The translations under genes and the position numbers were made by a program. The notes beneath the pieces are model-generated. The model ran no database searches, had not been told where the DNA came from, and was given only the letters and a program-made list of their open reading frames with translations. Of a stretch of 62,810 nt of DNA, positions 3,212-51,841 are shown piece after piece. How positions within the stretch are numbered: position 1 is the first letter of the stretch; each line of letters opens with the position of its first letter. Source of the stretch: a virus (Duplodnaviria; Caudoviricetes); the IMG/VR virus record IMGVR_UViG_3300037722_000563, positions 1 through 62,810 of that record. The stretch is one strand, 5' to 3'.

Positions 3212-3255
3212 TGGCCGAGTTTCTGTGTGATGCAGAAACCGGCCTTTTTATTTTT
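3212..3255 (+). terminator. Intrinsic terminator between convergent genes
   Basis: GGCCG..TTTCTG/CAGAAA..CGGCC stem followed by a T-tract. Confidence 0.65.
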
Positions 3256-3449: not shown

Positions 3450-3705
3450 CTCGTTTCCTATATTCTGACTTCCAAAAGGTGTGATTTTCTGCTTTCTTGA
3501 CCAGAGCGGTATATGCTTGGTCACGACGGTTTTCCGTTTCATACCGAGTGTAGGTAGACCAGTTGGTCCACCGAAAAAACATCTCCGGGTTACGAATGCT
3601 CAGACGATACTCAATTATAAATGGACGACGGCGCTTACCCTTGGGTTTGAGCCTTCGTCCATTGTCTGTTTGATCGTCATAAGCGTTATTTGGGATATAA
3701 GTCAT
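3442..3705 (-). CDS. Hypothetical basic protein
   Basis: ORF with AGGA RBS downstream of the tRNA cluster. Confidence 0.55.
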   Translation of the reverse strand: MTYIPNNAYDDQTDNGRRLKPKGKRRRPFIIEYRLSIRNPEMFFRWTNWSTYTRYETENRRDQAYTALVKKAENHTFWKSEYRKRDA

Positions 3706-37133: not shown

Positions 37134-37353
37134 CCCTGAACCTGTCCAAATAGCACCGATTGAATGGAAAGTGATAACTAGAGACAGGTTGCCAGAGGGT
37201 GAATTCGTGCTGTATGGCTTGACTCCTAGACAATATGAGACTTTGGCCCGAAATATGGCTGATATATTACGTTGGGTAAAGGAAGCTCAATGGCGCCTGG
37301 AATATTACCGGGGCGATGGGCAGCTTGATGGTAAGAAGGATGTGGCCCCATGA
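36958..37353 (+). CDS. Outer-membrane spanin lipoprotein (Rz1-like); start uncertain
   Basis: Overlaps Rz in another frame; lipobox LLMSSA-C; Pro-rich. Confidence 0.75.
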   Translation: MSFQNMILSVFRSPNRVLLSAGLTVVLLMSSACSSLPQIEVRTAQVDVPRPEAHPAVPNPEPVQIAPIEWKVITRDRLPEGEFVLYGLTPRQYETLARNMADILRWVKEAQWRLEYYRGDGQLDGKKDVAP

Positions 37354-37760
37354 CATTCGTACTAGGACAACGATCAATAGCTCGACTTTCTGGTGTTCAC
37401 CCGGCTCTTATTGCTGTGATAAGACGAGCCATAGAGATATCAGATGTTGACTTTACAGTGCTTGAAGGTGTACGATCCATGGAGCGTCAGAAGATACTGT
37501 TCGATGGTGGTGCATCTAAGACTATGAATTCGAGACATTTAACTGGGCACGCTGTCGATCTAGGGGCCTATGTTGGTGGTGAGGTTCGATGGGAATGGGC
37601 TCTGTATCAGCGTATCGCCAAGGCTGTGAATGCTGCGGCTGACGAGTTAGCCGTAGATATAGTCTGGGGCGGTGATTGGGATGACGACGGTAGTGAAGCC
37701 GATGAGAAGGGCTTACGAGACGGCCCACATTTTCAACTTAAGCGCAGTAAATATCCATAA
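37350..37760 (+). CDS. Endolysin, M15 L-Ala-D-Glu peptidase
   Basis: EGVRS..RQ, SRHLTGHAVD, WGGDW, DGPHFQL. Confidence 0.9.
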   Translation: MTFVLGQRSIARLSGVHPALIAVIRRAIEISDVDFTVLEGVRSMERQKILFDGGASKTMNSRHLTGHAVDLGAYVGGEVRWEWALYQRIAKAVNAAADELAVDIVWGGDWDDDGSEADEKGLRDGPHFQLKRSKYP

Positions 37761-37911: not shown

Positions 37912-37940
37912 TTGACATATCCGATACAGTCTGGTATACT
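37912..37940 (+). promoter_or_regulatory. sigma70 promoter of the tRNA array
   Basis: TTGACA-N17-TATACT. Confidence 0.85.
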
Positions 37941-37965
37941 GTTTATCGAAATGATGGAAAGAACC

Positions 37966-38076
37966 ATGAATCATCTGAGTGAAATATCCTATAAGCTGAC
38001 GCAGTATCACCCCATTGTGGTGAACGCGCGCTGGGACAATACCACCCAGATGGGTGACGGGGGTTCATTGATTTAA
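37966..38076 (+). CDS. Putative attenuator leader peptide (36 aa)
   Basis: MNHLSEISYKLTQYHPIVVNARWDNTTQMGDGGSLI*; GGAAAG RBS; in-frame upstream ATGs at 37951/37954. Confidence 0.6.
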   Translation: MNHLSEISYKLTQYHPIVVNARWDNTTQMGDGGSLI

Positions 38077-38102
38077 GGATCATGAACATATAGTCTACGA
38101 TA

Positions 38103-38145
38103 GACCCCCTGGATGCCAAGCAACTAGGGGGTTTTATTTTTTTTT
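38103..38145 (+). terminator. Intrinsic terminator between promoter and first tRNA
   Basis: GACCCCCTGG/CTAGGGGGTT stem plus ~13-nt T-tract. Confidence 0.85.
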
Positions 38146-38217
38146 CAGGGAAGGCACGGGGTGTGCCGGGTGGCTGTTAACCATTTGAGCTAGGTTCGAC
38201 TCCTAGTCCTGAAGCCA
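38144..38217 (+). tRNA. tRNA-Asn(GUU), atypical D arm
   Basis: GGTGG CT GTT AA CCATT; D arm GGCAC/GTGCC. Confidence 0.8.
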
Positions 38218-38273
38218 AAACAAAATTGTGGCTTGAATACGCTTGAGTTCCATAACAGCCGTGCCGCAATTTA

Positions 38274-38346
38274 CGCAGGGGAACATGGGTTCCTCGGGCT
38301 TTCATACGGCCCAGAGTGGTGGGTTCGACTCCCCCTCCTGCGACCA
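38274..38346 (+). tRNA. tRNA-CAU (Met/Ile2-type), shortened D arm
   Basis: GGGCT TT CAT AC GGCCC; TTCGA; CCA. Confidence 0.6.
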
Positions 38347-38355
38347 TACAATTGA

Positions 38356-38432
38356 TGCGGGTTAGACTGGAGGAGGTTCCAGCTTGGTCTCATACGCCAA
38401 AGACACAGGTTCGATTCCTGTACCCGCTACCA
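38356..38432 (+). tRNA. tRNA-fMet-like (CAU)
   Basis: U1:U72 mismatch; TTGGT CT CAT AC GCCAA. Confidence 0.75.
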
Positions 38433-38437
38433 AATAT

Positions 38438-38515
38438 GGGAGTGTAGCTCAGTCCGGATAGAGCAGCGGTCTCCAAAATCGTGTGTCGTGGGTTCGAATC
38501 CTACCTCTCCCGCCA
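38438..38515 (+). tRNA. tRNA-Trp(CCA)
   Basis: GCGGT CT CCA AA ATCGT. Confidence 0.9.
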
Positions 38516-38521
38516 AATTAT

Positions 38522-38596
38522 CCTTCTGTCGTCCAGCGGACAGGACGCCCGCCCGATAAGCGGGAAACCGGGGTTCGAATCCCTGCGGAAGGACCA
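38522..38596 (+). tRNA. tRNA-Ile(GAU)
   Basis: CCCGC CC GAT AA GCGGG (C33). Confidence 0.85.
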
Positions 38597-38655
38597 AAAA
38601 TTAGTATATGAGACCATGGGTATAGTGATTCCCAAGGCTGAACTGTCTCATATAT

Positions 38656-38733
38656 CTGAGCGTAGGAAAGCCAGGCTAATCCGCCTCCCTTGGAAGGAGG
38701 AGAACGTCCGTTCGAATCGGACCGCTCAGACCA
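38656..38733 (+). tRNA. tRNA-Pro(UGG)
   Basis: CCTCC CT TGG AA GGAGG. Confidence 0.9.
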
Positions 38734-38739
38734 AATTAT

Positions 38740-38818
38740 GGTGAGTAATGACCAACCGGTTGTTGGCTCCTGTCTGTGAAACAGGAAAGGGTGGGTTCGA
38801 CCCCCACTGCTCACCCCA
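38740..38818 (+). tRNA. tRNA-His(GUG) with G-1:C73
   Basis: CCTGT CT GTG AA ACAGG; 8-bp acceptor stem. Confidence 0.85.
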
Positions 38819-38823
38819 GTTGT

Positions 38824-38898
38824 GTGGCGGTCGTCTACAGGAAGGACCCTTGGTTCTCAGCCAGGATAACGCGGGTTCGAATCCCGTTCGCCACTCCA
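38824..38898 (+). tRNA. tRNA-Glu(CUC)
   Basis: CTTGG TT CTC AG CCAGG. Confidence 0.88.
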
Positions 38899-38946
38899 GT
38901 TCATGTTTTGTTAACAGATTGTGTGCTAATATTACGATCTGTTTAT

Positions 38947-39021
38947 GGGCCGATAGCTTAATGGGAGAGCGACTGCCTTGCAAGCAGTTAGGTGAGGGTT
39001 CGAATCCCTTTTGGTCCACCA
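38947..39021 (+). tRNA. tRNA-Ala(UGC)
   Basis: G3:U70; ACTGC CT TGC AA GCAGT. Confidence 0.92.
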
Positions 39022-39048
39022 AATACGTCGTCAGACGACAAAGGTTAT

Positions 39049-39123
39049 GCTCGGTTAGCTCAGTGGTAGAGCGTTGGTGTTACATACCAAGCGTCGGGAG
39101 TTCGAATCTCTCACCGAGTACCA
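39049..39123 (+). tRNA. tRNA-Val(UAC)
   Basis: TTGGT GT TAC AT ACCAA. Confidence 0.9.
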
Positions 39124-39129
39124 AGTTAA

Positions 39130-39206
39130 GGGTAGCGGTACTGGTTGGCATCAGGTCCCGCCTGTAAAGCGGCGTAAATCAGGTTCAATTCCTGGGCTAC
39201 CCACCA
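39130..39206 (+). tRNA. tRNA-Tyr(GUA), short variable arm
   Basis: CCGC CT GTA AA GCGG; acceptor GGGTAGC/GCTACCC. Confidence 0.75.
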
Positions 39207-39212
39207 AATTAT

Positions 39213-39289
39213 TGATCCGTAGCTCAACTGGACTGAGCACCACCCTGCGAAGGTGGAGGATGCAAGTTCGAATCTTGTCGGGTCAACCA
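39213..39289 (+). tRNA. tRNA-Arg(GCG)
   Basis: CCACC CT GCG AA GGTGG. Confidence 0.85.
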
Positions 39290-39293
39290 ATAT

Positions 39294-39374
39294 GCTTCCG
39301 TATGCCCTCTGGCTTCGAACCAGTGGAAAGGCTAACTGGACCACATGCGGGTTCGAATCCTGCCGGGAGCGCCA
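39294..39374 (+). tRNA. Non-cloverleaf tRNA-Arg(UCG)-like RNA with rearranged arms
   Basis: Acceptor and T arms normal; anticodon arm CTGG CT TCG AA CCAG follows the acceptor 5' strand; D-loop-like TAACTGGA lies 3' of it. Confidence 0.65.
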
Positions 39375-39378
39375 AGAT

Positions 39379-39455
39379 CGGTCTGTAGCTCAAATGGACA
39401 GAGCGCCCGGCTTCGAACCGGGAGGTTGTGGGTTCCAATCCTGTCAGACCGGCCA
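39379..39455 (+). tRNA. tRNA-Arg(UCG)
   Basis: CCCGG CT TCG AA CCGGG. Confidence 0.85.
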
Positions 39456-39459
39456 AAAT

Positions 39460-39545
39460 GGATGATTGGCAGAGTGGTAATGCAGCGGTTTGCTAAACCG
39501 TAGAACCGAAAGGTTCCGAGGGTTCGAATCCTTCATCATCCGCCA
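39460..39545 (+). tRNA. tRNA-Ser(GCU)
   Basis: GCGGT TT GCT AA ACCGT; long variable arm. Confidence 0.92.
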
Positions 39546-39612
39546 AAATCGGTATGCACTGACGTTAGGTGCAGATAGCCGCAAGGTCGTTCTTGCGCGC
39601 CGACGATATAAT

Positions 39613-39689
39613 GTGCTGTTAGAGGAGGGGCCGTCCTCGCTGCCCTGTCACGGCGGAAATCACGGGTTCGAATCCCGTACAGCACGCCA
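39613..39689 (+). tRNA. tRNA-Asp(GUC)
   Basis: CTGCC CT GTC AC GGCGG. Confidence 0.9.
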
Positions 39690-39693
39690 ATAT

Positions 39694-39766
39694 GTTCGGG
39701 TAGTTTAAGATTAGAATGCCACTCATTAGAGTGGAGATGGAGGTTCAAGTCCTTCCCTGATCGCCA
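39694..39766 (+). ncRNA. tRNA-like RNA lacking a canonical 7-nt anticodon loop
   Basis: D arm, T arm and CCA present; anticodon arm CCACTC-ATTA-GAGTGG. Confidence 0.6.
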
Positions 39767-39770
39767 ATAT

Positions 39771-39845
39771 GCTGTGGTAGCTCAGTGGCAGAGCATCTGC
39801 TTGGTACGCAGGAGGTCGAGGGTTCAATTCCTTCTCACAGCACCA
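39771..39845 (+). tRNA. tRNA-Thr(GGU)
   Basis: TCTGC TT GGT AC GCAGG. Confidence 0.9.
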
Positions 39846-39851
39846 TATTAC

Positions 39852-39926
39852 GCCGCTCTAGCTCAACTGGTAGAGTCCTCCCTTGTAAGGAGCGAGATAG
39901 GGGTTCGAGACCTCTGGGTGGCACCA
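39852..39926 (+). tRNA. tRNA-Thr(UGU)
   Basis: CTCC CT TGT AA GGAG. Confidence 0.85.
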
Positions 39927-39942
39927 ATTTAAGGAACTAGAC

Positions 39943-40077
39943 ATGACTAAAAATGAAGAAGAAAAGCTATACGATGCTATCTATACTGCGGTATTATACG
40001 CATTGAATCAGATTGATTACAAAAAATTGTCATGTTTTAGTCAATGGAAAGAATATAAGACACAAACGGACCGGTAG
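39943..40077 (+). CDS. Small ORF within tRNA array (44 aa)
   Basis: AAGGA RBS; MTKNEEEKLYDAIYTAVLYALNQ... Confidence 0.45.
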   Translation: MTKNEEEKLYDAIYTAVLYALNQIDYKKLSCFSQWKEYKTQTDR

Positions 40078-40143
40078 CTCAGAGGCCAGAGCGCGGGGCT
40101 CTTAATCCCGGCGTCGTGGGTTCAAATCCCACTCGGTCCTCCA
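40068..40143 (+). tRNA. tRNA-Lys(CUU)
   Basis: CGGGG CT CTT AA TCCCG. Confidence 0.9.
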
Positions 40144-40159
40144 TACTAAGGAGAGCGTC

Positions 40160-40666
40160 ATGAACAGCCCAAAGTTGGACTATGACCGTATTAACGAGTA
40201 TATCCGTAGCAGTCATGCAGAGAGTGTGGTGATGATCGGTTGCGACTCGGTACGGAAGGAGGTCCATGGTAAGGCTCATGCATTGTATTCCGCCGTTGTC
40301 TGCATTCGAAAGGCAAGTGGCGAGGGGGTATTTCATGGTTGCAAGGTCTTCGGTGGTTCTGTACGGTTGCCTGATTATGGTAAGGTGATCAAGAGTGGTA
40401 AGCTTGCGAACTTGCGTATGCGTTTGATGCAAGAGGTTACATTCGCCATAGAGGCTTTCGAGAATGTGTACGAGGCTATTGGTGATCGTCCATTCGAAAT
40501 TCACCTCGACATCAACGGTCGCCCAGATGCTGAAAGTTATGTGGCATTGGCAGAAGCGCGTGGATATGTTATGGGTGTTACTGGTGGTATTGCACCAGAG
40601 TTCAAACCTAATGCTTTGGCGGCTAGCTTTGCTGCCGATCACTGGGCGCATGGCTTTATGAGCTAG
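40160..40666 (+). CDS. RNase H-like YkuK/DUF458 family protein
   Basis: IGCDS, RLMQEV, EIHLDIN, KPNALAASFAADH; AAGGAG RBS. Confidence 0.8.
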   Translation: MNSPKLDYDRINEYIRSSHAESVVMIGCDSVRKEVHGKAHALYSAVVCIRKASGEGVFHGCKVFGGSVRLPDYGKVIKSGKLANLRMRLMQEVTFAIEAFENVYEAIGDRPFEIHLDINGRPDAESYVALAEARGYVMGVTGGIAPEFKPNALAASFAADHWAHGFMS

Positions 40667-40675
40667 GAGAAAATT

Positions 40676-40852
40676 GTGTTGAAGAAGCAAGTACGTGACT
40701 ATGACAAGACGTTCAGCGCATGGGATGCGATCCTTAGGCATCTTCGACGTAAGGAACCATCAGATAGATGCGCTTTCTTTGTCGAGGAACTGTCCGATGA
40801 GCAAATCTCCGCGATTGAGCGGGCTAAAGTCCCTCCACATACACCAAGTTAA
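40676..40852 (+). CDS. Small protein (58 aa), antitoxin-tail-like
   Basis: AGGAG RBS; ...HLRRKEPSDRCAFFVEELSDEQISAIERAKVPPH. Confidence 0.5.
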   Translation: MLKKQVRDYDKTFSAWDAILRHLRRKEPSDRCAFFVEELSDEQISAIERAKVPPHTPS

Positions 40853-40929
40853 GCCGGTGTGGGCAAATGGCAAAGTCGCTCGGTTCAAATCCGAGAGTTC
40901 TGTGGGTTCGAGTCCCACCTCCGGCACCA
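40853..40929 (+). tRNA. tRNA-Leu(CAA), short variable arm
   Basis: CTCGG TT CAA AT CCGAG. Confidence 0.85.
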
Positions 40930-40935
40930 AGTTTA

Positions 40936-41028
40936 CGTAGCGTAGTTTAACGGTAAAACACCCGGCTTATACCCGGCATGTCTCTAGATTAGAGAGCAAT
41001 GTAGGTTCGAATCCTACCGCTATGACCA
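40936..41028 (+). tRNA. tRNA-Ile(UAU) with long variable arm
   Basis: CCGG CT TAT AC CCGG; extra arm TCTCTAGATTAGAGA. Confidence 0.75.
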
Positions 41029-41034
41029 AACTAT

Positions 41035-41111
41035 GCCCTCGTAGCCCAACAGGTAGAGGCGGCTGCCTTAGAAGCAGTCTAGTGTAGGTTCGAATCCTAT
41101 CGAGGGTACCA
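41035..41111 (+). tRNA. tRNA-Leu(UAG), short variable arm
   Basis: GCTGC CT TAG AA GCAGT. Confidence 0.88.
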
Positions 41112-41115
41112 ATAT

Positions 41116-41207
41116 GGAAGGATGGCCGAGTGGACTAAGGCGCACGCCTGGAAAGCGTGTAAACGAATCAAACCGTTTCGTGGGTTCGAATCCGACTCCT
41201 TCCGCCA
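41116..41207 (+). tRNA. tRNA-Ser(GGA)
   Basis: CACGC CT GGA AA GCGTG; long variable arm. Confidence 0.92.
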
Positions 41208-41208
41208 T

Positions 41209-41306
41209 GGATGGCTAAGCCGAAAGATTCTGGGTAACGGCACCCGTCTTGAAAACGGTAGGCCCCTAAGAGGGGTGTGTGGGTTCGAATCCTACGCCAT
41301 CCGCCA
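41209..41306 (+). tRNA. tRNA-Ser(UGA), enlarged D loop
   Basis: CCGT CT TGA AA ACGG; long variable arm. Confidence 0.85.
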
Positions 41307-41358
41307 ATGTTGCGTATAGTGATCATTGTTGCGTATAATGCCAATGATATTGCGCATA
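41307..41358 (+). promoter_or_regulatory. Internal promoter with three TTGCGYATA direct repeats
   Basis: TTGCGT-N18-TATAAT; repeats at 41307, 41326, 41347. Confidence 0.5.
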
Positions 41359-41368
41359 GGAGGTAAGA

Positions 41369-41518
41369 TTGCATAAGAAGCGCGGTAAACCAAAGAGTGG
41401 TAGAGCAGGCTGTCTCCTTTGTAAGCCTCATAAGAGACAAGGTTCTAAGTGTGCAGATAGACAAAAGCATTCTGAAAACCGAAGACTTGAGAGTACAAAA
41501 GAACAATTGCTGGGATAG
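41369..41518 (+). CDS. Small basic CxxC peptide (49 aa)
   Basis: AGGAGG RBS, TTG start; HKKRGKPKSGRAGCLLCKPHK. Confidence 0.65.
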   Translation: MHKKRGKPKSGRAGCLLCKPHKRQGSKCADRQKHSENRRLESTKEQLLG

Positions 41519-41584
41519 CTCAGTTGGTAGAGCGGCGTCCTGAAAAGGCGCGCGTCGGGGGTTCGAAACCCTCTCCTAGCACCA
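41509..41584 (+). tRNA. tRNA-Phe(GAA)
   Basis: GCGTC CT GAA AA GGCGC. Confidence 0.92.
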
Positions 41585-41585
41585 T

Positions 41586-41660
41586 GCCATCGTAGTATAG
41601 CGGCATTACAGCGCCCTCGTAAGGCGTCAAACCGGGGTTCAAATCCTCGCGGTGGCACCA
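41586..41660 (+). tRNA. tRNA-Thr(CGU)
   Basis: GCGCC CT CGT AA GGCGT. Confidence 0.9.
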
Positions 41661-41665
41661 ATTAA

Positions 41666-41739
41666 TGCTGGATAGTTTAGTGGTAGAACGCTTGGCTCTG
41701 AACCAAGTAGCAAGGGTTCGAATCCTTTTCCGGCATCCA
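41666..41739 (+). tRNA. tRNA-Gln(CUG)
   Basis: CTTGG CT CTG AA CCAAG. Confidence 0.9.
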
Positions 41740-41744
41740 ATTAA

Positions 41745-41820
41745 CGGCACGTGGCTCGAATGGATAGGCACCCGGCTTCTAACTGGGACGATGTGGGTTC
41801 GAATCCTACCGTGCTGGCCA
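41745..41820 (+). tRNA. tRNA-Arg(UCU)
   Basis: CCCGG CT TCT AA CTGGG. Confidence 0.9.
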
Positions 41821-41825
41821 ATATC

Positions 41826-41900
41826 GCTGGCTTAGTTCAGTGGCAGAACCGGGCGCTCATAACGCTCTTGTCGGGGGTCCGATTCCTCCAGCCAGCACCA
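41826..41900 (+). tRNA. tRNA-CAU (Ile2 or elongator Met)
   Basis: GGGCG CT CAT AA CGCTC. Confidence 0.85.
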
Positions 41901-41907
41901 AGTTAAT

Positions 41908-41982
41908 GGATCAGTGGCTTGACAGGGAAGCATCGGACTTTTAATCCGTGATATGTGGGTTCGAATCCCACCTGATCCCCCA
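41908..41982 (+). tRNA. tRNA-Lys(UUU)
   Basis: CGGA CT TTT AA TCCG. Confidence 0.85.
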
Positions 41983-41986
41983 TAAT

Positions 41987-42063
41987 GCTCCTGTAGCCCA
42001 ATCGGCAGAGGCGTCGGCTTTAAGTCCCGATCAGTGTGGGTTCGAATCCCTCCAGGAGTACCA
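41987..42063 (+). tRNA. tRNA-Leu(UAA), short variable arm
   Basis: TCGGC TT TAA GT CCCGA; Leu-type D arm. Confidence 0.8.
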
Positions 42064-42069
42064 ATTTGT

Positions 42070-42143
42070 TGCCGAGTCGTCTAACGGTAGGACCTCTGCC
42101 TTTGAAACAGAATACGATGGTTCGAATCCATCCTCGGCATCCA
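42070..42143 (+). tRNA. tRNA-Gln(UUG)
   Basis: TCTGC CT TTG AA ACAGA. Confidence 0.88.
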
Positions 42144-42147
42144 ATAT

Positions 42148-42225
42148 GCGGCGGTCGTCTAAATGGCCTAGGACCTCTGACTTTCAATCAGGGCAATACG
42201 GGTTCGAATCCCGTTCGCCGCTCCA
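42148..42225 (+). tRNA. tRNA-Glu(UUC)
   Basis: TCTGA CT TTC AA TCAGG. Confidence 0.9.
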
Positions 42226-42253
42226 TTATCTTCCATTACCTTTCATTAACTAT

Positions 42254-42331
42254 CGTCCCGTAGCTCAGTTGGACTAGAGCGTCTGCCTCCTAAGCGGAAG
42301 ATCGCAGGTTCGAGTCCTGCCGGGACGACCA
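42254..42331 (+). tRNA. tRNA-Arg(CCU)
   Basis: TCTGC CT CCT AA GCGGA. Confidence 0.92.
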
Positions 42332-42397
42332 ATTTTTCTCTTGACTTTTGCGGCATATTGCGATATGCTATATCCACAATCAAAAGGAGTGATGACG

Positions 42398-44107
42398 ATG
42401 AATGCTCAATCCAGCGTCTTGGCTTTGTTCAATTGCCTTGTGGTGGCCCCTCATCAGAAGCGTAATACTCCATTTGTGGAACTTATTGGCCAGGGTGTTG
42501 TTACCAATTTCAATCCAAGTGCAGAACAGCGGGATATTTTTCGCAGCGTTCTTAAGCCTTTGGATATGCGTACTTTATTCAGCCGTGAGGAGCGAGAGAA
42601 TGCGCCCCTAGCTGACTTGCTTACTAAGCAATTCCTGCACTATATCGAGGTGTACGGTCTCGGTATGCCGGGTCTGTTCGATTTAGAAGTTGACAACGGT
42701 AGCATTGTGTCCTTGCGCTATGTGCATGGTATTACAGTGGCTGAGTTGGAAGAGATGGTATGTGATTTGCTGGATGCTAATGCACCGGTTAAGGACGCCA
42801 AGCAACTTCAAAACATAATCGAACATTACGGCCTTACTTTTAATATAAATGGTGTGGTCAACAATGAACTGCGTGTTCTTCTATGGAGCGAGAGACAGGG
42901 GTCTTTCACATCTGGAGATGATGCGGTGCGCTATATGTGCGCCAAAGCAACTGGTGATGCCCTTTTGATCAAGTCGAAAGAGGTGCTCGCGGCTGTGAAG
43001 GCGCACAAGTTCCCTGCATCGTTCTTTGAGCAGCATGAAGACGTATTGGCTCAAGTGTTTAACCGCCACAAGCGAATTATCCTGTCTGCCAAGAACAAGG
43101 CTACGGCTGCGGCTATCAACCGGATCACTCGCCTAAGCAAGACAAAGCATGTACCGGTTCGCGAATCCATTGCCAAGACATTTATTCATAAGGCGTTAAT
43201 GGGCGAAGCCGATGCAAGTGCCCTTGAGAAAGTGTCTGTGCGTGACAAGTTCAAATATCTAAATCTCTTGGCTACAAAGCGGCTCGGAAACGGTAACGTC
43301 GTTTTCAAGATTCGCAATGGAAAAGTATACTATCGTAACGATATGCAAGTGTATCCATTGGATGTCATTAGCCGAGTAGAAAGCATGGTGATAGATAGTC
43401 TTGCAAAGGACCTTGAGCATCTAAAAGATACTACCATTCTGCTCGATGAGAATGTGGACTATGGTTTGCCAACTTCGCGCAAACAAACCCTTGGTCAGCT
43501 ACCATTCGGCACTAAAGTAACCAGCACGGCCAACGAGATTTCTTCTGGAATCTATTGGGAGAATGGCTGGGGTGCTCACGATCTGGACTTGAGTGGTATC
43601 AATCTTGATGGTGAGCGTGTAGGTTGGGGTTCGTACCGTGGATACAACGATAGCGGCATCGTATTCTCTGGTGACGTAGTAGATGCGCATAATGGTGCCA
43701 TGGAGTTCTTAACGTCTAGAACCACCGAGTATGGCATCGTTGTAAACATCTTCAATGGCCGAGAAGGTTCTGAAATGGAATTGGTGGTTGGCCGAAACAC
43801 GGGCCGGACACGGTGGCTTAGCGAGACCCTGGTGCGAGAGCGTCACAAGCTGGAGTCACGTAATTGCTTGCTAGGGTTCGTGAAGGGTAAGACTTTTGTG
43901 GTCTATACTGGCCGTATGGACAACCGTCGTGTATCGGATACTAACCCAACTCTCCAGGCCATGAAGACGAATTTCTGGACAGTTCATAGACTCTTGACTA
44001 CGCTAGGTATAAACTTCGATGTTGAACCTCAGGATGGGTTCAAATATACTCACGATTTAAGCTACAACTCATTTAGTTTCGATAAGTTGGAGGCCCTTTT
44101 TAAGTAA
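42398..44107 (+). CDS. Large helical protein with C-terminal TerD-like domain
   Basis: QFLHYIEVYG, VFNRHK, GQLPFGT, GIYWEN..DLDLS..FSGDVVDA..GAMEF; own promoter at 42341 and AAAGGAG RBS. Confidence 0.7.
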   Translation: MNAQSSVLALFNCLVVAPHQKRNTPFVELIGQGVVTNFNPSAEQRDIFRSVLKPLDMRTLFSREERENAPLADLLTKQFLHYIEVYGLGMPGLFDLEVDNGSIVSLRYVHGITVAELEEMVCDLLDANAPVKDAKQLQNIIEHYGLTFNINGVVNNELRVLLWSERQGSFTSGDDAVRYMCAKATGDALLIKSKEVLAAVKAHKFPASFFEQHEDVLAQVFNRHKRIILSAKNKATAAAINRITRLSKTKHVPVRESIAKTFIHKALMGEADASALEKVSVRDKFKYLNLLATKRLGNGNVVFKIRNGKVYYRNDMQVYPLDVISRVESMVIDSLAKDLEHLKDTTILLDENVDYGLPTSRKQTLGQLPFGTKVTSTANEISSGIYWENGWGAHDLDLSGINLDGERVGWGSYRGYNDSGIVFSGDVVDAHNGAMEFLTSRTTEYGIVVNIFNGREGSEMELVVGRNTGRTRWLSETLVRERHKLESRNCLLGFVKGKTFVVYTGRMDNRRVSDTNPTLQAMKTNFWTVHRLLTTLGINFDVEPQDGFKYTHDLSYNSFSFDKLEALFK

Positions 44108-44239: not shown

Positions 44240-44253
44240 TTTTATATTGGCCC

Positions 44254-44282
44254 TTGACACGGGTGGTGTGTCTTGTTATAGT
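44254..44282 (+). promoter_or_regulatory. sigma70 promoter of tmRNA
   Basis: TTGACA-N17-TATAGT. Confidence 0.8.
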
Positions 44283-44288
44283 AAGTGT

Positions 44289-44613
44289 CTGAGTTCGATG
44301 AAGCGGAACGAAAGACGATCAGGACCGGGGGGCAGTGCCCCGCGCCTCCACCATAAGTACATTCACGGGCAACAGATTGTGTGACGAATCAGGATCGTAT
44401 GCCTGCGTGGACACGCCAAAGTGAATGTACTTTTGATGGGGGCGAACTAGGTTCGACTGGCGGCAAGTAGGGATGTCGAGGACTCCGGGATGATACCCAC
44501 GTAGCGGATCAAAACATCTAAACGCAAATGACAACGTAGCGTTCGAGGACATGGCTCTAGCAGCCTAGGTCTCATAGGGTTTCGGGGGACGACCTAGTAA
44601 CAGAAGGTCCCCC
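44289..44613 (+). ncRNA. ssrA: Circularly permuted two-piece tmRNA (alphaproteobacterial type)
   Basis: Acceptor piece with GGCAGTG T-loop ends CGCCTCCACCA (44353); coding piece starts GGGGGCGAA (44438); tag ANDNVAFEDMALAA* at 44524-44568. Confidence 0.92.
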
Positions 44614-44682
44614 ACCCCCATTTGACTAGTCATGCGAGTCTGAGTATAATTCAGGCTCGTTCATGATTCATAGGAGACCAGA

Positions 44683-46040: not shown

Positions 46041-49000
46041 CTAAATTATATCACAAATACCTGCTGAGCAAGCCAGTTCTCGGGTATTGTTTGTGTTGTC
46101 TTCGCTTTCGTACTTGCTTAGCCCACTCCAGTCTATCTCAGGCATAGCCGCAAGTACTTCCTGATACTTCTCCTTGGTTATTTCCTGGTATGGAGCTTGT
46201 TTGTAGGTATGATCTGTGTGCGGTAGGAAGGCCAGCCCACCAGCCGAATCGAAATTATCCCACACCCATGCCCCAACAGACGGCCACTCTTTTTCTCGCA
46301 CATATACAGTTATGGATGGGTTATGCTCACACCAGTTATCGTGAAACACTTTCCAGTGTTCAAGCTGTTCAAGGGCACTCATGTCATTACGCAAAACAGA
46401 ACCTTCTGGACTTTCCGCAGGGAACGAGAAAACTACATTTTCTTTATTCATTACGTCTATTTCATAAGGCACCCCCTGATCTATCATCATCTGGGTAAGT
46501 GGGTCCTTAGCATCCTGGCGCACAGTACGTATATAATATTTAGAAAAAGCCGTATGCATGCCGCTAGGTGTGTTCACAAGCTGGCTGGACGTACCTTCTG
46601 GTTTTATGCAAGTTACAGCCGCACTCTGAGGAATGCCTAGTCGTTCAGCCCACTCCTTATTAGTGGATATGGCAACCTCTTTTAGACGCAGTAATAGATT
46701 AGCTGTTCCACCAAGGCCGCTAGCAGAACGACCATTGAGCAAAGGATTAGCCATTATACCCGTCATGCTTACACCAAGAAGCCGCTCTTCCTCACAGTTA
46801 TCCTGCCATTTCTTTGTAAGATACCTGAATTTAGTAAGAGTGGATTGCCATGTTCCAAGAATAGTTGCTAGGCGTACTTTCTCTTCCAATGTATCTGGAT
46901 TGTCGTCAGGTCGAACTACAACTGTGCTTAAATTACAAAATTGCTTTGGCCGTAGAATAATCTCACCGCAGTTTCCTGTGACGATTCCGTTAAACGTCCC
47001 CCTGTTCGCCAACGAATCGGTAAAGCAGAAAGTCTCGTGTGGTCCGGCGTCATATACTGAAATGACGCGAACAAATTGGCGGGCATCCCTTTGTGGAATC
47101 TGTCCGTCATGTTCAAGCCGAGAAAGTTGAAGTCCCTTAGAAATAAGGTACGCGGAATCGGTGTTGCCAATCAACAGCCGCCAAGTTTTTTGACAATAGT
47201 ATGTTCCACCCGGCATGTCCTTTTCGCGGCTCTCGTGGCCTCGGACTACTTTCGCACGAATGCCGAGACGTGTAAGCATCAATTGAGTATGCAATAGAAA
47301 AGTCTTGTCAATAGATGTGATCTGAAAGCCTGATCCTTGTTTGTCTTTTGTAACGGTTCCATCCGAATCCAGTAAACCAGCAAGCCATTCCAGGCAATAA
47401 GCCGACGTAGCCTTGACAGGAACGAATCGCCGGTCAAGCATAGGTCCATGGGTCCACCGTTTACGCAGGCGATCCCCATCTTTTTTTATGTCTCCGACCA
47501 GCCGAGCCGCACAGGAGTATTTAGGCTCATAAAGCCAAGAATGGTTCAATCCGTGGTTTCCGTCTCCCGCATAAAATCCTTGAGAGTATCCGTCGATGTT
47601 AGGATCGCTGCCCTCGTTAACAAAAGGCATATCGTATTTAGTCAATTTATCTCCTGGACGTAAATCCTCTGCGCATACCCTACGCTCGTTTCCTCCCCGA
47701 GACCACCCATCCCATACAAGAAACATATGATATGGCGTGCAATGAAGACTTGTGCCATCAGAAAAAGTTACGATAACAGTTTCGTTCATCCCTGTACTAA
47801 ACGGGACCACGGAAGACCATTGTTCTCCATTCCAAATCTGGACAGGCTGATCCACTAGATCGGAAATCTCATAATATCCGTGCGACGTAAGGATAGGCGT
47901 ATCACCGGAAACGCAAGGATTCGTTCCAAAATCAATAGCACGAGGTTCAATACCATTTGACAGGTTGCCCTTACGTCGCTCATTTTTCATAGCCTGTATG
48001 CGTGCAGCTTCGCGATTGAAGATACCGCGCTCGCCTGACTTAGACGCATAAAGGGACATCCATTCTTCCATATATTGCCCAACTTCAGGTTGCTCTGTGT
48101 AAGCCACTGAGTTATTTGCAATGCGTCTCTGTGGCTCCAATACCCACCATTCGCCTGATTTGGCATCTCTCATACGCTGATCGCTTAGGTTGGATAGGCT
48201 AATCAGTGCAGACCGGCGAACACCACCCACTACGACACATTCACCGATCATGCATATGATATCATGACATTGAATACTTGTAAGCTTTCTTTGGCCGTTC
48301 TCTATAGCATTTTGAAACAAACGGATAGTGTGTGTAAATAGGTCAATCAACGGTTGGGGTCCACTAGCGCGGCCACCCATGGTTTTTAGACGCGCACCGG
48401 CAGGCCGCACCTTAGACGTATCCCATTTGGGTATGCGCCCAGCATAGAGGAGGCTGAGGAGTTCCCGGTATGCCTCAGCCCAGCCTCTCTTGGAGTCACG
48501 CACAGCAATTGTAATCCCAGACTCCTCAAGGCGCTCGGGAAGCGCAGGAAGCTGGTTTACGTACTGGCGTTCCACCGAGAAGCCAACTCCTGTAGCGCAC
48601 ATCAGCACGAACAGGATTTCATCGAATGCACGAATATCATCTACCGGACGGTATGCACAGTTTCCGGTAACAAGTCCCTTGTTGAGTACAAATGTGTTTG
48701 TATCGGGGACCTCAGCACAGTAAACGGGCTCCACCCGTCCAGTAGGTTCCACGGATACGACCACGTAATGGGATTCAAGGGGGCGAAACCGCTCCCGTTT
48801 CCGTTCGATGAGGAAATCGTCCGCCAACAGGGACGACCGGCTGAGGAATACGACCCACGAATGGCTCTTGCGTTCTCCGAGATTTGTCCGGTTTGACTGC
48901 TGTGTAGCCCTCTGTACAACAAAGCCGACCTTCGAAGCAATATGCTCCAGCCACCACTTACCGGCCTCCTTTGTGCAAATAGACACCTGTCCTGCTGCAC

Positions 49001-49874
49001 TGATATATCCATCAGCAGCCATCCACCCGCGAAGGAACCCCACAAGGTAGCTGTCGGTCTCGTCCACGGAGGGGAGAGTTTTTAAACTGTGCGTCTTGGC
49101 GAACCCATCATACAGCATCACCACAGGGTCACCGTTGGCTGACGGGGGATAGCATACGGGATACCCGTCGAACCACGGGAGCAGGTCCGCCGCGTCGGAG
49201 CACAGCCTGATATGGTATCCCTTAGCCCGCTTACAGGAGTATACAGCGGTACCGTCGCCATATACCAGACCATGGATCACCCCCAGCCGGTAGTCTTCGT
49301 CATCTGTAGACGGACGTTCTGCTGCTACAAAGGGTACCCTGTCCCCGGAACGCAGGAATTCAGTGGGCACCACACGGCCACCCTCAAGGAGCCAGCGGTG
49401 GTTGGCTGTGCAATCTACAGAATTCAATGTATTCGAATTCAACTTAAGGCTGACGGTGTGTGTGTCTTGGCTGCCATAACAGTTAAACTCTGCGGCGGTC
49501 CATCGGCTGTCCTTATTCAGGACCGTGGCCGTAGAGCCGCTCAACTGTTCGATAGGAACCAGGCCGTGCTCATGGGTGAGAACAAGTGTGGAGCCCGCTA
49601 CCGGATTATATCCAGATACATGATCACGGCCTAGAGCATTGCCAGCAGCCATGAGACAACGCATGGACGGCATAACATCAAGTTTTTGTACAGCATCTTT
49701 GATAGGTAAATATTCCTGAGGGGCGATAGAACCGTGGTTTTCACGTAGATAGGGTATGAAGAAATCAAAATACCGCTGAACTGTCTCATCCCAAGTCTCT
49801 CTGCGACCTTCGTTTTCGTTCCAACGGGCATAACGGCTAGCATGAATGAATCGTTGATAGTCTGTCTTAAACAT
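46041..49874 (-). CDS. nrdJ: Class II (B12-dependent) ribonucleotide reductase with two inteins
   Basis: SRYARW, MPSMR, YN|CAY, GGVRRSA, GTNP|CGEI, TCIKPEGT, C-terminal ACSAGICD. Confidence 0.92.
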   Translation of the reverse strand: MFKTDYQRFIHASRYARWNENEGRRETWDETVQRYFDFFIPYLRENHGSIAPQEYLPIKDAVQKLDVMPSMRCLMAAGNALGRDHVSGYNPVAGSTLVLTHEHGLVPIEQLSGSTATVLNKDSRWTAAEFNCYGSQDTHTVSLKLNSNTLNSVDCTANHRWLLEGGRVVPTEFLRSGDRVPFVAAERPSTDDEDYRLGVIHGLVYGDGTAVYSCKRAKGYHIRLCSDAADLLPWFDGYPVCYPPSANGDPVVMLYDGFAKTHSLKTLPSVDETDSYLVGFLRGWMAADGYISAAGQVSICTKEAGKWWLEHIASKVGFVVQRATQQSNRTNLGERKSHSWVVFLSRSSLLADDFLIERKRERFRPLESHYVVVSVEPTGRVEPVYCAEVPDTNTFVLNKGLVTGNCAYRPVDDIRAFDEILFVLMCATGVGFSVERQYVNQLPALPERLEESGITIAVRDSKRGWAEAYRELLSLLYAGRIPKWDTSKVRPAGARLKTMGGRASGPQPLIDLFTHTIRLFQNAIENGQRKLTSIQCHDIICMIGECVVVGGVRRSALISLSNLSDQRMRDAKSGEWWVLEPQRRIANNSVAYTEQPEVGQYMEEWMSLYASKSGERGIFNREAARIQAMKNERRKGNLSNGIEPRAIDFGTNPCVSGDTPILTSHGYYEISDLVDQPVQIWNGEQWSSVVPFSTGMNETVIVTFSDGTSLHCTPYHMFLVWDGWSRGGNERRVCAEDLRPGDKLTKYDMPFVNEGSDPNIDGYSQGFYAGDGNHGLNHSWLYEPKYSCAARLVGDIKKDGDRLRKRWTHGPMLDRRFVPVKATSAYCLEWLAGLLDSDGTVTKDKQGSGFQITSIDKTFLLHTQLMLTRLGIRAKVVRGHESREKDMPGGTYYCQKTWRLLIGNTDSAYLISKGLQLSRLEHDGQIPQRDARQFVRVISVYDAGPHETFCFTDSLANRGTFNGIVTGNCGEIILRPKQFCNLSTVVVRPDDNPDTLEEKVRLATILGTWQSTLTKFRYLTKKWQDNCEEERLLGVSMTGIMANPLLNGRSASGLGGTANLLLRLKEVAISTNKEWAERLGIPQSAAVTCIKPEGTSSQLVNTPSGMHTAFSKYYIRTVRQDAKDPLTQMMIDQGVPYEIDVMNKENVVFSFPAESPEGSVLRNDMSALEQLEHWKVFHDNWCEHNPSITVYVREKEWPSVGAWVWDNFDSAGGLAFLPHTDHTYKQAPYQEITKEKYQEVLAAMPEIDWSGLSKYESEDNTNNTRELACSAGICDII
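46971..47915 (-). mobile_element. Class 1 intein with LAGLIDADG domain (315 aa)
   Basis: CVSGDT...CTPYH...GIVTGN|C; WLAGLLDSDG. Confidence 0.9.
48660..49604 (-). mobile_element. Class 3 intein (Pro-start) with LAGLIDADG domain (315 aa)
   Basis: PVAGST...CTANHRW...VYCAEV...LVTGN|C; FLRGWMAADG. Confidence 0.88.
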
Positions 49875-50715: not shown

Positions 50716-51201
50716 CTATGAGGCTGGTACTTCCTCACCATATTCCGACCGCTGTACGATAGGCAGATATCTCTCTTCCCACCATTCATCTTCATAGTGT
50801 TTTGATGTGGGATAATCTCGGGTGTTTACCGCGCCGTTAAGATATGCATTCCTAGCTAAGAGCCGAGATTTTTGTTCTACTGAAGTCACAATCCAGTCTT
50901 CAGCCTTACCATACTGAGCAGGGTATCTAGCGCACAGTTTCGTTACATTTTGTGTCACAACCTCGTCAATGGATACGTCAAAAGCATTCAATGCGTGAAA
51001 GAAGTACCACAATACATCGCCAAGCTCTTTTATCAAATCATCTCTGTTTAATTCTTTACCGTGCAGTAGATGCTTCTTTATCAATTCAGAAACTTCACCA
51101 GCTTCTCCGTTTAGACCGAGAGCAGCTAAGAATTTTGCGTCACGCTCACCCTTTGTGAAGTTGCCTAGCTTTACAAATGCTTGGAATTTTTCAGTTTGCA
51201 T
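50716..51201 (-). CDS. MazG-like nucleotide pyrophosphohydrolase
   Basis: LGLNGEAGEV...KELGDVLWY...NVTKLCARYP. Confidence 0.88.
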   Translation of the reverse strand: MQTEKFQAFVKLGNFTKGERDAKFLAALGLNGEAGEVSELIKKHLLHGKELNRDDLIKELGDVLWYFFHALNAFDVSIDEVVTQNVTKLCARYPAQYGKAEDWIVTSVEQKSRLLARNAYLNGAVNTRDYPTSKHYEDEWWEERYLPIVQRSEYGEEVPAS

Positions 51202-51841
51202 TGATTTTCATCCCTAAGTCAGAAGTTGCGCTATTAACGCGATCAAATAGCTCAAGCTGTATGTTCTTTGGCAGATTATTCTTTCCTATACCCCTAACAT
51301 CGTACGACATTAAAGCTAGGATATTCCACGCTGCCATGGCGAGGTGATGGCAACCAGTTGTTCCTTTTTCTAAATCGAATTCTAGGCCGTCATATCGCTC
51401 GCCAGCCATGAATTTATTGACATGACGCTTTGCACAACCGATCATTATAGACCAGTCCATACCTTCTTCCCAATTTCGTTCAGCGTATTTTTTCGAACCT
51501 TGGGTAGACACATCGGCTAACGCCCACTCCCACTCTGGAGGAGTAAGTTCCATTCGAGTTTTACCCTTATTATAGCGCTTGCCGCCACCGTCAGCACCAA
51601 CGCCCAACTCTTCCTGTCGTTTAGATCGTTCCCCCATATCCCATTCTTCCGTTTTATCTAGAGGCCATTTCATTTCCCTGGAGTCTGACTCACCGAACCT
51701 GCCAGGAGCTATATCTTTTCGCTCTGGTTCTATGCGTCCTGCTACAAGAGTATGTTCTGGTTCTTCCTGAAAGCGGTTATGCAAGAAAGGTTCGCATTGG
51801 CATGGTGCTGAATTGCAATATCCGCACATCTCATGGCCCAT
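51191..51841 (-). CDS. dATP/dGTP diphosphohydrolase (DUF5664)
   Basis: GK.RMEL, GSKKYAERNWEEG, RH, HLAMAAWN. Confidence 0.82.
   Translation of the reverse strand: MGHEMCGYCNSAPCQCEPFLHNRFQEEPEHTLVAGRIEPERKDIAPGRFGESDSREMKWPLDKTEEWDMGERSKRQEELGVGADGGGKRYNKGKTRMELTPPEWEWALADVSTQGSKKYAERNWEEGMDWSIMIGCAKRHVNKFMAGERYDGLEFDLEKGTTGCHHLAMAAWNILALMSYDVRGIGKNNLPKNIQLELFDRVNSATSDLGMKINAN

What the first reader, a model, noticed from the sequence alone, without database searches (positions are those of the whole stretch)
37912..38145. Putative all-amino-acid attenuator gating a 35-gene tRNA array
Seen: a strong promoter (TTGACA-N17-TATACT) is separated from the first tRNA by a clear intrinsic terminator (GACCCCCTGG/CTAGGGGGTT plus T-tract, 38103-38145). 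Between them lies a 36-codon ORF (37966-38076) with 18 of 20 amino acids (all but Cys and Phe), 17 of them in the first 24 codons, including rare AUA. Its last codons contain GGGGGTT (38059-65), complementary to the terminator 5' arm GACCCCC, and further helices (GTTCA.TGAT/ATCA.TGAAC, GTCTA/TAGAC) could stabilise an antiterminator. Established: trp/his-type attenuators use this layout but with runs of one amino acid. Inference: a ribosome reaching the stop codon covers GGGGG so the terminator forms; stalling at almost any codon frees GGGGG and allows read-through. The phage would then deploy its tRNAs only when host tRNAs are depleted or cleaved (anticodon-nuclease defence, starvation). tRNA-Cys is outside this array and tRNA-Phe lies behind a possible internal promoter.
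Basis: partly seen in the sequence, partly recalled or inferred. Interest (0 to 1): 0.92.

Follow-up and report, generated by a model that had tools for sequence, protein, structure and literature searches.

The report
Conserved leader gating phage tRNA array
A strong promoter, a conserved 40-codon mini-gene and a transcription stop signal sit directly in front of a phage's tRNA cluster, here and in a distant relative, so the phage may meter tRNA output by how well the mini-gene is translated; this is not shown, and the idea that it senses all amino acids is not supported.

Summary
The sequence features are real. They are a near-consensus sigma-70 promoter (37912-37940), a short ORF ending at 38076, and a strong intrinsic terminator (38103-38145) whose U-tract touches the first tRNA (Asn, 38144).

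New evidence: a metagenome contig (L009) with the same tRNA order has the same module. It has a perfect promoter, a start 7 nt after the -10 (leaderless type), a 40-codon ORF, a stem-loop, and a terminator abutting tRNA-Asn. The two ORFs share their last six residues through four synonymous differences. Three more peptide homologues exist in protein databases.

The last codons can pair with the 5' flank of the terminator in the same register in both phages. Two of those pairs show compensatory changes. In both phages this promoter is the only strong one ahead of the array.

Not supported:
- Amino-acid diversity is not above chance across the family (18, 19, 17, 16, 18 kinds).
- The G5:C5 pairing is not conserved as such.
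- In the window, the terminator dominates at equilibrium whatever the ribosome position.

Best reading (about 0.4): a translation-coupled attenuator with a conserved leaderless leader peptide. Main rival (about 0.3): a small protein gene followed by a leaky terminator. No expression data were available.

The parts
37912..37940 (+). Sigma-70-type promoter: -35 matches 6 of 6, 17-nt spacer, -10 matches 5 of 6, with TG before the -10
   Evidence: The homologous position in L009 (405-433) matches 12 of 12. It is the only + strand site scoring 10 of 12 or better between here and 44254.
37951..38076 (+). Leader ORF: 41 codons from the double ATG at 37951 (10 nt after the -10), or 36 codons from the ATG at 37966
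   Evidence: Homologues are L009:441-563, P0122/P0123, P0124 and weakly P0127. No Pfam or PHROG match.
38056..38076 (+). Conserved last six codons (Asp-Gly-Gly-Ser-Leu-Ile) plus the stop codon
   Evidence: Identical residues in L009 with 4 synonymous and 0 non-synonymous differences. The same ending occurs in P0122, and with Met for Leu in P0124.
38063..38087 (+). Local hairpin holding the Ser-Leu-Ile codons, with the stop codon in its loop (-6.4 kcal/mol)
38058..38111 (+). Candidate antiterminator: a three-way junction closed by 38058-38062 pairing with 38107-38111. In an alternative register, 38059-38070 pairs with 38098-38109 (11 of 12 pairs).
   Evidence: It is the minimum-energy fold of nascent RNA ending at 38112-38123. 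The same register is the best one in L009, with 2 double compensatory changes. On its own it is not beyond shuffles.
38093..38105 (+). Small 5-pair hairpin that shares three bases with the terminator's 5' arm
   Evidence: -2.1 kcal/mol.
38103..38145 (+). Intrinsic terminator: 10-pair stem with an inner 3-pair extension, then a 12-nt U-rich tract
   Evidence: -20.3 to -21.4 kcal/mol. The scan tool missed it because its loop limit is 8.
38144..38217 (+). tRNA-Asn (GUU), first gene of the array. Its first two bases overlap the U-tract.
   Evidence: ARAGORN. Not listed by Rfam at E <= 1. L009 has tRNA-Asn in the same place at 61.4 bits.
38144..42331 (+). tRNA array of 32 ARAGORN genes, with an RNase H-like ORF inside it at 40160-40666

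Best explanation
This is a translation-coupled transcription attenuator in front of the phage's tRNA array.

Host RNA polymerase starts at a near-consensus promoter. The transcript begins at, or within a few bases of, a double AUG, so the leader is read as a leaderless or near-leaderless mRNA encoding a conserved peptide of about 40 residues.

The last four or five codons form the 5' strand of a structure that captures the 5' side of the terminator stem. In the window this structure is a three-way junction. In L009 it is a long hairpin.

If a ribosome is on the last codons or the stop codon when the polymerase makes the terminator, that strand is buried. The terminator then folds, and the transcript ends one or two bases before tRNA-Asn. 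If no ribosome is there (poor initiation, slow elongation anywhere in the ORF, or tRNA shortage), the competing structure forms first and more polymerases run into the tRNA genes.

The conserved peptide ending may prolong ribosome occupancy at the stop codon.

Shown: the anatomy, its conservation, the coding constraint and the competing pairings. Inferred: translation of the ORF, the switch itself, its direction, and the role of the peptide ending.
For: 1. Module conservation. L009 has the same tRNA order and a permuted tmRNA, while its linked 569-aa protein is only 59% identical. It carries a promoter, a double ATG 7 nt after the -10, a 40-codon ORF, a stem-loop and a terminator abutting tRNA-Asn.
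2. Coding constraint. The last six residues are identical, with 4 of 4 differences synonymous (P about 0.0045). Three further peptide homologues keep the frame across insertions.
3. Placement. This is the only promoter scoring 10 of 12 or better upstream of the array in the window and in L009, and the terminator lies between it and the tRNAs. A terminator abutting a tRNA is rare: 6 of 367 tRNAs were flagged in the window plus 42 loci, including these two.
4. Competing pairing. The best register for pairing the last codons with the region between the stop codon and the terminator is the same in both phages: 11 of 12 pairs in the window and 9 of 12 in L009. Two pairs changed on both sides.
5. 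L009 energetics. Upstream sequestration of the terminator arm beats 99% of shuffles. The predicted probability of the full terminator is 0.27-0.92 with the ribosome P-site upstream (0.31-0.43 over the last codons before the switch), and 0.93-0.95 once the P-site is within the last eight codons.
6. Window nascent fold. The junction that captures the C-run is the minimum-energy fold of the nascent RNA before the 3' arm exists.
7. Spacing. The distance from the stop codon to the terminator arm is 26 nt here and 27 nt in L009. This is close to the roughly 30 bp beyond which a terminating ribosome no longer blocks a terminator in E. coli (PMC4824070, sections 9-10 read).
8. Contrast. The other stable-RNA promoters (before tRNA-Cys on the - strand at 4269, and before the tmRNA at 44254) have no leader ORF or terminator.
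Against: - DNA is available for only two leaders, so the covariation rests on one comparison.
- In the window the terminator is predicted at P about 0.97 for every ribosome position. The forced antiterminator is 12 kcal/mol less stable.
- The window's pairing is not beyond shuffles (P 0.34).
- The window's local hairpin competes for the same 5' strand.
- In L009 the long hairpin and a shortened terminator can coexist.
- Several peptide segments are conserved, not only the end. That fits a protein with its own function.
- One weak homologue (P0127, E 0.25) ends differently.
- There are no runs of regulatory codons.
- No RNA data were available.
Confidence: 0.4

Rival explanations
1. The ORF is an ordinary small-protein gene, a new family of about 40-55 residues, with its own promoter and terminator. 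The terminator is simply leaky. It also gives the small mRNA a protective 3' hairpin, and RNase P cutting at tRNA-Asn would produce the same 3' end. The tRNAs are made by constitutive read-through, with no sensing.
For: - Several peptide segments are conserved across 4-5 homologues: the double Met start, a Pro-Ile segment, and the ending.
- The last codons are under purifying selection.
- In the window the terminator is predicted to form regardless of ribosome position.
- The window's competing pairing is not beyond chance.
Against: - A very strong terminator between the only strong promoter and 31-32 tRNA genes in two diverged phages is costly if unregulated.
- The pairing register is conserved with two compensatory changes, and the stop-to-terminator spacing is conserved.
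- L009 shows a predicted ribosome-position dependence.
- No family, fold or function can be assigned to the peptide.
Confidence: 0.3
2. The terminator is overcome by processive antitermination, in the manner of the lambda late promoter and its terminator. The promoter fires constitutively and makes a roughly 190-nt RNA, until a phage factor or a cis-acting leader RNA makes the polymerase terminator-resistant. The ORF is secondary.
For: - A strong promoter is followed within about 200 nt by a strong terminator ahead of the genes it serves.
- The leader is highly structured (z -3.6).
Against: - No antiterminator gene was recognised among the 19 window proteins I scanned against Pfam. The record is only about 75% complete.
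- This model does not explain the conserved reading frame or the conserved peptide ending.
Confidence: 0.1
3. One reading: the leader is built to contain nearly every amino acid, so that shortage or cleavage of almost any tRNA stalls the ribosome and opens the array.
For: - The window peptide has 18 kinds and L009 has 19 kinds in 40-41 residues (P 0.20 and 0.04).
- Nearly all leader codons have a matching phage tRNA.
Against: - P0122 has 17 kinds in 43 residues (P 0.54) and P0124 has 16 in 50 (P 0.92).
- P0127 has 18 kinds in 55 residues by my count.
- Phe is present in L009, P0124 and P0127.
- Only Cys is absent from all members, which is expected for a residue at 0.8% frequency.
- What is conserved is motifs, not variety.
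Confidence: 0.07

Closest known systems
Leader-peptide transcription attenuators of amino-acid operons (trpL, hisL, pheL, and pheM before pheST); recalled knowledge, except pheL, which was seen in the abstract listing of PMC3082878
   Same: A promoter-proximal intrinsic terminator, a short translated leader ORF, and an ORF-proximal strand that can pair with the terminator's 5' side. A ribosome at the end of the ORF favours termination.
   Different: - There are no runs of one regulatory codon.
- There is no clear upstream partner hairpin that enforces termination without translation.
- The start is leaderless rather than Shine-Dalgarno-led.
- The peptide sequence itself is conserved.
- The regulated genes are tRNAs, not enzymes.
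Ribosome-mediated attenuators that sense general translation stress through leader peptides (for example bmrB-bmrCD, PMC4191407; mef/mel, PMC4335068; msrD leader, bioRxiv 10.1101/2021.11.29.470318). Only the search listing and abstracts were seen.
   Same: Read-through rises when the ribosome is slowed on a short leader ORF, whatever the amino acid. The output genes help translation cope.
   Different: Those respond to antibiotics and control transporters or ABC-F factors in bacteria. This one is in a phage, controls tRNA genes, and no ligand or stress is known.
Stop-codon arrest peptides such as TnaC (recalled, not checked in a paper here)
   Same: A conserved C-terminal motif lies immediately before the stop codon, with an aromatic residue 13-17 positions upstream in 3 of 4 full members. 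Downstream transcription termination is at stake.
   Different: TnaC stalling blocks Rho-dependent termination and turns genes on. Here a ribosome held at the stop codon would favour an intrinsic terminator. No arrest has been shown.
Lambda late promoter with its promoter-proximal terminator and Q antitermination (recalled)
   Same: A constitutive strong promoter, a short terminated RNA of about 190 nt, and downstream genes that depend on read-through.
   Different: That leader has no conserved ORF. No Q-like gene or engagement site was identified here.

Membership tests
Leader-peptide (ribosome-mediated) transcription attenuator | An intrinsic terminator between the promoter and the regulated genes | tested here: met
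   The same holds in L009.
Leader-peptide (ribosome-mediated) transcription attenuator | A short ORF in the leader that is translated | tested here: inconclusive
   The ORF is conserved with a coding signature. Translation itself is not testable, and no RNA or ribosome data exist.
Leader-peptide (ribosome-mediated) transcription attenuator | An antiterminator mutually exclusive with the terminator, with its 5' strand within ribosome reach of the ORF end | tested here: inconclusive
   - L009: a 3-4 nt overlap, beyond shuffles (P 0.009), and a predicted switch.
- Window: a 7-nt overlap and the minimum-energy fold of the nascent RNA, but not beyond shuffles, and the terminator dominates at equilibrium.
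Leader-peptide (ribosome-mediated) transcription attenuator | A cluster of codons for the sensed amino acid | tested here: not met
   No residue occurs more than three times, and there are no runs.
Arrest-peptide regulators (TnaC, SecM, Erm leader class) | A conserved peptide motif at the site of stalling | tested here: met
   The last six residues are shared by the window, L009 and P0122, with one conservative change in P0124. They are not shared by P0127.
Arrest-peptide regulators (TnaC, SecM, Erm leader class) | Demonstrated ribosome stalling | not testable with these tools
   Needs toeprinting or ribosome profiling.
Factor-dependent promoter-proximal antitermination (lambda Q type) | An antiterminator protein gene and its engagement site at the promoter | tested here: inconclusive
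   None was recognised among the 19 proteins scanned. The record is incomplete, and engagement sites were not searched.
Rho-independent terminator | A G+C-rich hairpin directly followed by a U-tract | tested here: met
   A 10-pair stem with five G-C pairs in a row and 11 U in the 12 nt after it.

The most novel reading that the evidence does not exclude
A family of environmental phages controls its whole tRNA arsenal through a leaderless, roughly 40-codon leader peptide with a conserved stop-proximal motif. Ribosome occupancy at the end of this peptide decides whether an intrinsic terminator abutting the first tRNA fires. The tRNA output is therefore fed back from the cell's translation capacity: tRNA depletion, anticodon nucleases or host shut-off would open the array, and restored decoding would close it. 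This would be the first attenuator known to gate tRNA genes.
Probability: 0.3. Interest if true: 0.8.

Novelty: new variant of a known kind. Interest (0 to 1): 0.6.

Why it matters
Why phages carry large tRNA sets, and when they use them, is an open question. Codon adaptation, compensation for host tRNA decay, and escape from anticodon nucleases are all debated. A cis-acting sensor that ties tRNA transcription to translation status would show that the phage deploys tRNAs on demand. It would also give a compact, testable element of about 230 nt.

My four literature searches found no paper describing a leader-peptide attenuator before tRNA genes. That covers only the open-access library searched.

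Even under the rival reading, the work defines a new conserved small-protein family tied to tRNA arrays, and an unusual terminator-tRNA junction.

Tried and rejected
**Searches for close relatives**
- GenBank phages gave no DNA match to the leader.
- The tRNA array gave only scattered tRNA matches.
- tblastn with the L009 peptide gave five weak hits at E >= 0.09, none credible.

**IMG/VR scans**
- The exact terminator found 0 loci.
- The 569-aa protein alone found 0.
- The degenerate peptide-ending pattern found 13 loci, all chance: none is a 35-60-codon ORF followed by a terminator-like hairpin in the 140 nt I printed; tRNA genes were not scanned for in these loci.
- The promoter-plus-double-ATG pattern found 8 loci, none homologous.
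- The longer ending pattern found 1 chance locus.
- P0124 as a query found 0.

**Other collections and tools**
- The GTDB genome scan returned one chance hit without tRNAs.
- RNAalifold on two sequences was uninformative because the terminators misaligned.
- Sequencing runs: no RNA holder was listed. Four DNA runs laid as contigs showed no variants, so they give no microdiversity.
- One contig in run X6 shows a terminator-like 3' arm and a T-tract directly before a related tRNA-Asn piece. Only 30 letters were visible, so this is a hint only.
- The DNA for P0122, P0123, P0124 and P0127 could not be fetched.

**The 569-aa neighbour**
- No Pfam or PHROG match.
- The AlphaFold model has pLDDT 83, but Foldseek found no PDB match at E <= 0.001.

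**Rejected readings**
- The - strand ORF 37943-38119: I did not examine it further; the L009 list shows long unrelated - strand ORFs over the region, and I made no comparison.
- An internal promoter before tRNA-Phe: no site scores 9 of 12 or better.

Full report
**What is there**

The window is a single IMG/VR virus record, estimated 75% complete. Its portal protein is 45-49% identical to those of YuA-like Pseudomonas and Bordetella siphoviruses. No close relative exists in GenBank phages.

The + strand carries structural genes, then a lysis cassette: two Rz-like spanin matches, and an endolysin at 37350-37760. The element in question follows, then the tRNA array, a 569-aa protein of unknown function, and a permuted alpha-type tmRNA. 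Replication genes lie on the - strand beyond 45 kb.

At the stated coordinates I confirm the following.
- The promoter at 37912-37940 matches 11 of 12 positions, with a TG before the -10.
- The ORF runs to 38076.
- The terminator stem is 38103-38112 paired with 38124-38133, followed by a 12-nt U-rich tract.
- ARAGORN's tRNA-Asn starts at 38144, inside that tract. Rfam did not list this tRNA at E <= 1.
- The leader folds better than all 200 shuffles (z -3.6).
- The terminator hairpin has the lowest hairpin energy in a whole-window scan (-21.4, against -20.8 for the one at 3245).

**Is the amino-acid variety special?**

No. Compared with the phage's own protein composition:
- 18 kinds in 36 residues has P 0.09 (independent draws) or 0.07 (real protein windows).
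- For the 41-codon form, P is 0.15-0.20.
- The '17 in the first 24' figure has P 0.013, or 0.04 once the free choice of prefix length is allowed for.

**Relatives**

The 569-aa protein downstream of the array has many metagenomic homologues: 335 at E <= 0.001 among the 8000 candidates scored. I aligned 50 of the 120 listed. Scans with that alignment gave 5 viral and 37 metagenome loci.

I ran ARAGORN on 24 of these 42 loci. Fourteen carry 8 or more tRNAs.

One contig, L009 (59% protein identity), has the same tRNA order as the window: Asn, Met, Trp, Ile, Pro, His, Glu, Ala, Val, Tyr, Arg, Arg, Ser, Asp and onward. It also has the same permuted tmRNA, and 617 nt lie upstream of its tRNA-Asn.

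That upstream region holds the same module:
- a 12-of-12 promoter at 405-433;
- a double ATG 7 nt after the -10;
- a 40-codon ORF at 441-563;
- a stem-loop;
- a G+C-rich hairpin with a U-tract ending at the first base of tRNA-Asn.

The genes further upstream differ from those of the window. Conservation therefore begins at the promoter.

**The ORF is a conserved coding sequence**

The window and L009 peptides share the double Met start, a Pro-Ile pair, a Trp, and the last six residues, Asp-Gly-Gly-Ser-Leu-Ile.

In those six codons all four nucleotide differences are synonymous. Only 14 of the 54 possible single changes are synonymous, so P is about 0.0045.

Protein searches found further members.
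- P0122 (43 aa) and its cluster mate P0123 have the same ending.
- P0124 ends with Met in place of Leu and carries an internal insertion that keeps the frame. The full HMMER scan of 1.84 billion representatives gave 5 hits at E <= 0.001, of which 3 are short peptides and 2 are long proteins I regard as spurious.
- P0127 is a weak hit (E 0.25). It shares the start and middle motifs but ends differently.

P0123, P0124 and P0127 begin with the three residues that L009 encodes between its -10 and the double ATG. This suggests the same promoter-to-start spacing in those phages.

The amino-acid kinds across the family are 18, 19, 17 and 16, and 18 by my count for P0127. There is no consistent excess. 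Phe is present in three of the four homologues, so the Cys/Phe argument fails.

**Start of translation**

The distance from the -10 to the double ATG is 7 nt in L009 and 10 nt in the window. The transcript should therefore begin at or within a few bases of the first AUG, as a leaderless-type mRNA.

The second ATG in the window (37966) is preceded only by a weak purine stretch. The neighbouring gene at 37771 has a clear ribosome-binding site.

**RNA structures**

In L009 the last four codons and the stop codon form the 5' arm of a long hairpin (-25.4 kcal/mol). Its 3' arm overlaps the base of the terminator stem by 3-4 nt.
- Sequestration of the terminator arm exceeds 99% of dinucleotide shuffles.
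- With positions under a ribosome forced unpaired, the predicted probability of the full 8-pair terminator ranges from 0.27 to 0.92 while the P-site is upstream. It is 0.31-0.43 over the last codons before the switch.
- It is 0.93-0.95 once the P-site is within the last eight codons.

In the window the picture is weaker.
- At equilibrium the terminator has P about 0.97 for every ribosome position.
- A forced antiterminator is 12 kcal/mol worse.
- Shuffles match the observed sequestration 34% of the time.
In it, 38058-38062 pairs with 38107-38111 and encloses the two local hairpins.

Equilibrium dominance of the terminator is also true of the classical trp attenuator (recalled). It therefore does not exclude a kinetic switch.

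Sliding the 12-nt strand made of the Gly-Gly-Ser-Leu codons over everything between the stop codon and the terminator gives the same best register in both phages. The window has 11 of 12 pairs and L009 has 9 of 12. Two pairs changed on both sides, and both changes involve synonymous third positions. Two further pairs changed on one side compatibly.

Spacing from the stop codon to the terminator arm is 26 nt in the window and 27 nt in L009. In E. coli, terminators closer than about 30 bp to a stop codon are variably repressed by the terminating ribosome, and those farther away work fully (PMC4824070, sections 9 and 10 read). A ribosome at this stop codon should therefore cover the competing strand without blocking the terminator.

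**Context**

In the window, the + strand promoter-like sites scoring 11 of 12 with a TG are 7363, 37912 and 44254 (the tmRNA promoter). A 10-of-12 site with TG on the - strand at 4269 directly precedes tRNA-Cys. Neither stable-RNA promoter has a leader ORF or terminator.

No site scoring 10 of 12 or better lies inside either array. In L009 the only three such sites are the leader promoter, one before the 569-aa gene, and one before the tmRNA.

A terminator-like hairpin with a T-tract abutting a tRNA 5' end was flagged for 6 of 367 tRNAs in the window plus 42 loci. The two Asn genes are among them. L003 and L034 are the same contig, and their hit and the L015 hit are weak.

So the terminator stands between the array and its only evident promoter, in two phages. 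This is the definition of an attenuator in the broad sense.

**Verdict**

The anatomy and its conservation argue for a regulatory leader. I favour translation-coupled attenuation that senses general ribosome progress, at about 0.4. The conserved peptide ending may hold the ribosome at the stop codon.

The chief rival, at about 0.3, is a genuine small protein with a leaky terminator. The two are not mutually exclusive. Factor-dependent antitermination gets about 0.1. The all-amino-acid design gets about 0.07.

Nothing here shows transcription, translation or switching. No RNA run was available.

My four searches of the held literature found no description of a leader-peptide attenuator before tRNA genes. 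I saw only listings and abstracts, apart from the paper cited above.

Noticed in passing
window 42341-44107 (likely start near 42398); loci L002-L043: A 569-aa protein family of unknown function sits next to tRNA arrays in many phage contigs. Of the 24 loci scanned, 14 carry 8 or more tRNAs. It has no Pfam or PHROG match. The AlphaFold model has pLDDT 83, but no PDB fold matches at E <= 0.001. Distant homologues occur in the tRNA-rich Synechococcus phages S-CRM01 and S-CBWM1.
   Followed up: partly
window 38274-38347; L009 about 700-770: A tRNA-like element with an acceptor stem, a T-arm, a CCA end and a CAU-type anticodon loop lies between tRNA-Asn and tRNA-Met in both phages. ARAGORN does not call it. 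The only Rfam signal is a weak tRNA-like hit (E 0.41). This was read by eye.
   Followed up: partly
window 44250-44659; L007, L009, L015: The phage encodes a permuted (two-piece, alpha-proteobacterial type) tmRNA with its own near-consensus promoter. It is conserved in three related contigs. This hints at an alphaproteobacterial host.
   Followed up: partly
window 40160-40666: An RNase H-like (PF04308) ORF lies inside the tRNA array. Homologues at about 39% identity occur in KVP40-like Vibrio phages and in roseophages.
   Followed up: partly
window 50716-51841 (- strand): Adjacent MazG and dATP/dGTP diphosphohydrolase N-terminal domain proteins. As I recall, such enzymes accompany 2-aminoadenine (Z-base) genomes. 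I did not look for purZ.
   Followed up: no
window 46041-49874 (- strand): A class II ribonucleotide reductase interrupted by an intein with a LAGLIDADG homing endonuclease domain.
   Followed up: no
L005 12768-13230 and 7234-7325; L003 about 1180-1660 and L005 about 3140-3620: L005 carries a GOLLD RNA (187 bits) just after its 569-aa homologue, and a skipping-rope RNA. L003 and L005 also share a conserved, apparently structured non-coding stretch upstream of their tRNA-Asn. No Rfam family matches that stretch at gathering score.
   Followed up: partly
window 39694-39766 and 40936-41028: ARAGORN reports a tRNA with a two-base anticodon call (undetermined type) and a 93-nt tRNA-Ile (UAU) that is unusually long. 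Both reach Rfam's tRNA threshold.
   Followed up: no
run X6, record 8, laid at window 38151-38183: A contig from a sediment metagenome matches the tRNA-Asn anticodon arm with 3 differences. Directly upstream it shows a terminator-like 3' arm and a T-rich tract, so it may be a third relative with the same junction. Only 30 letters were shown.
   Followed up: no
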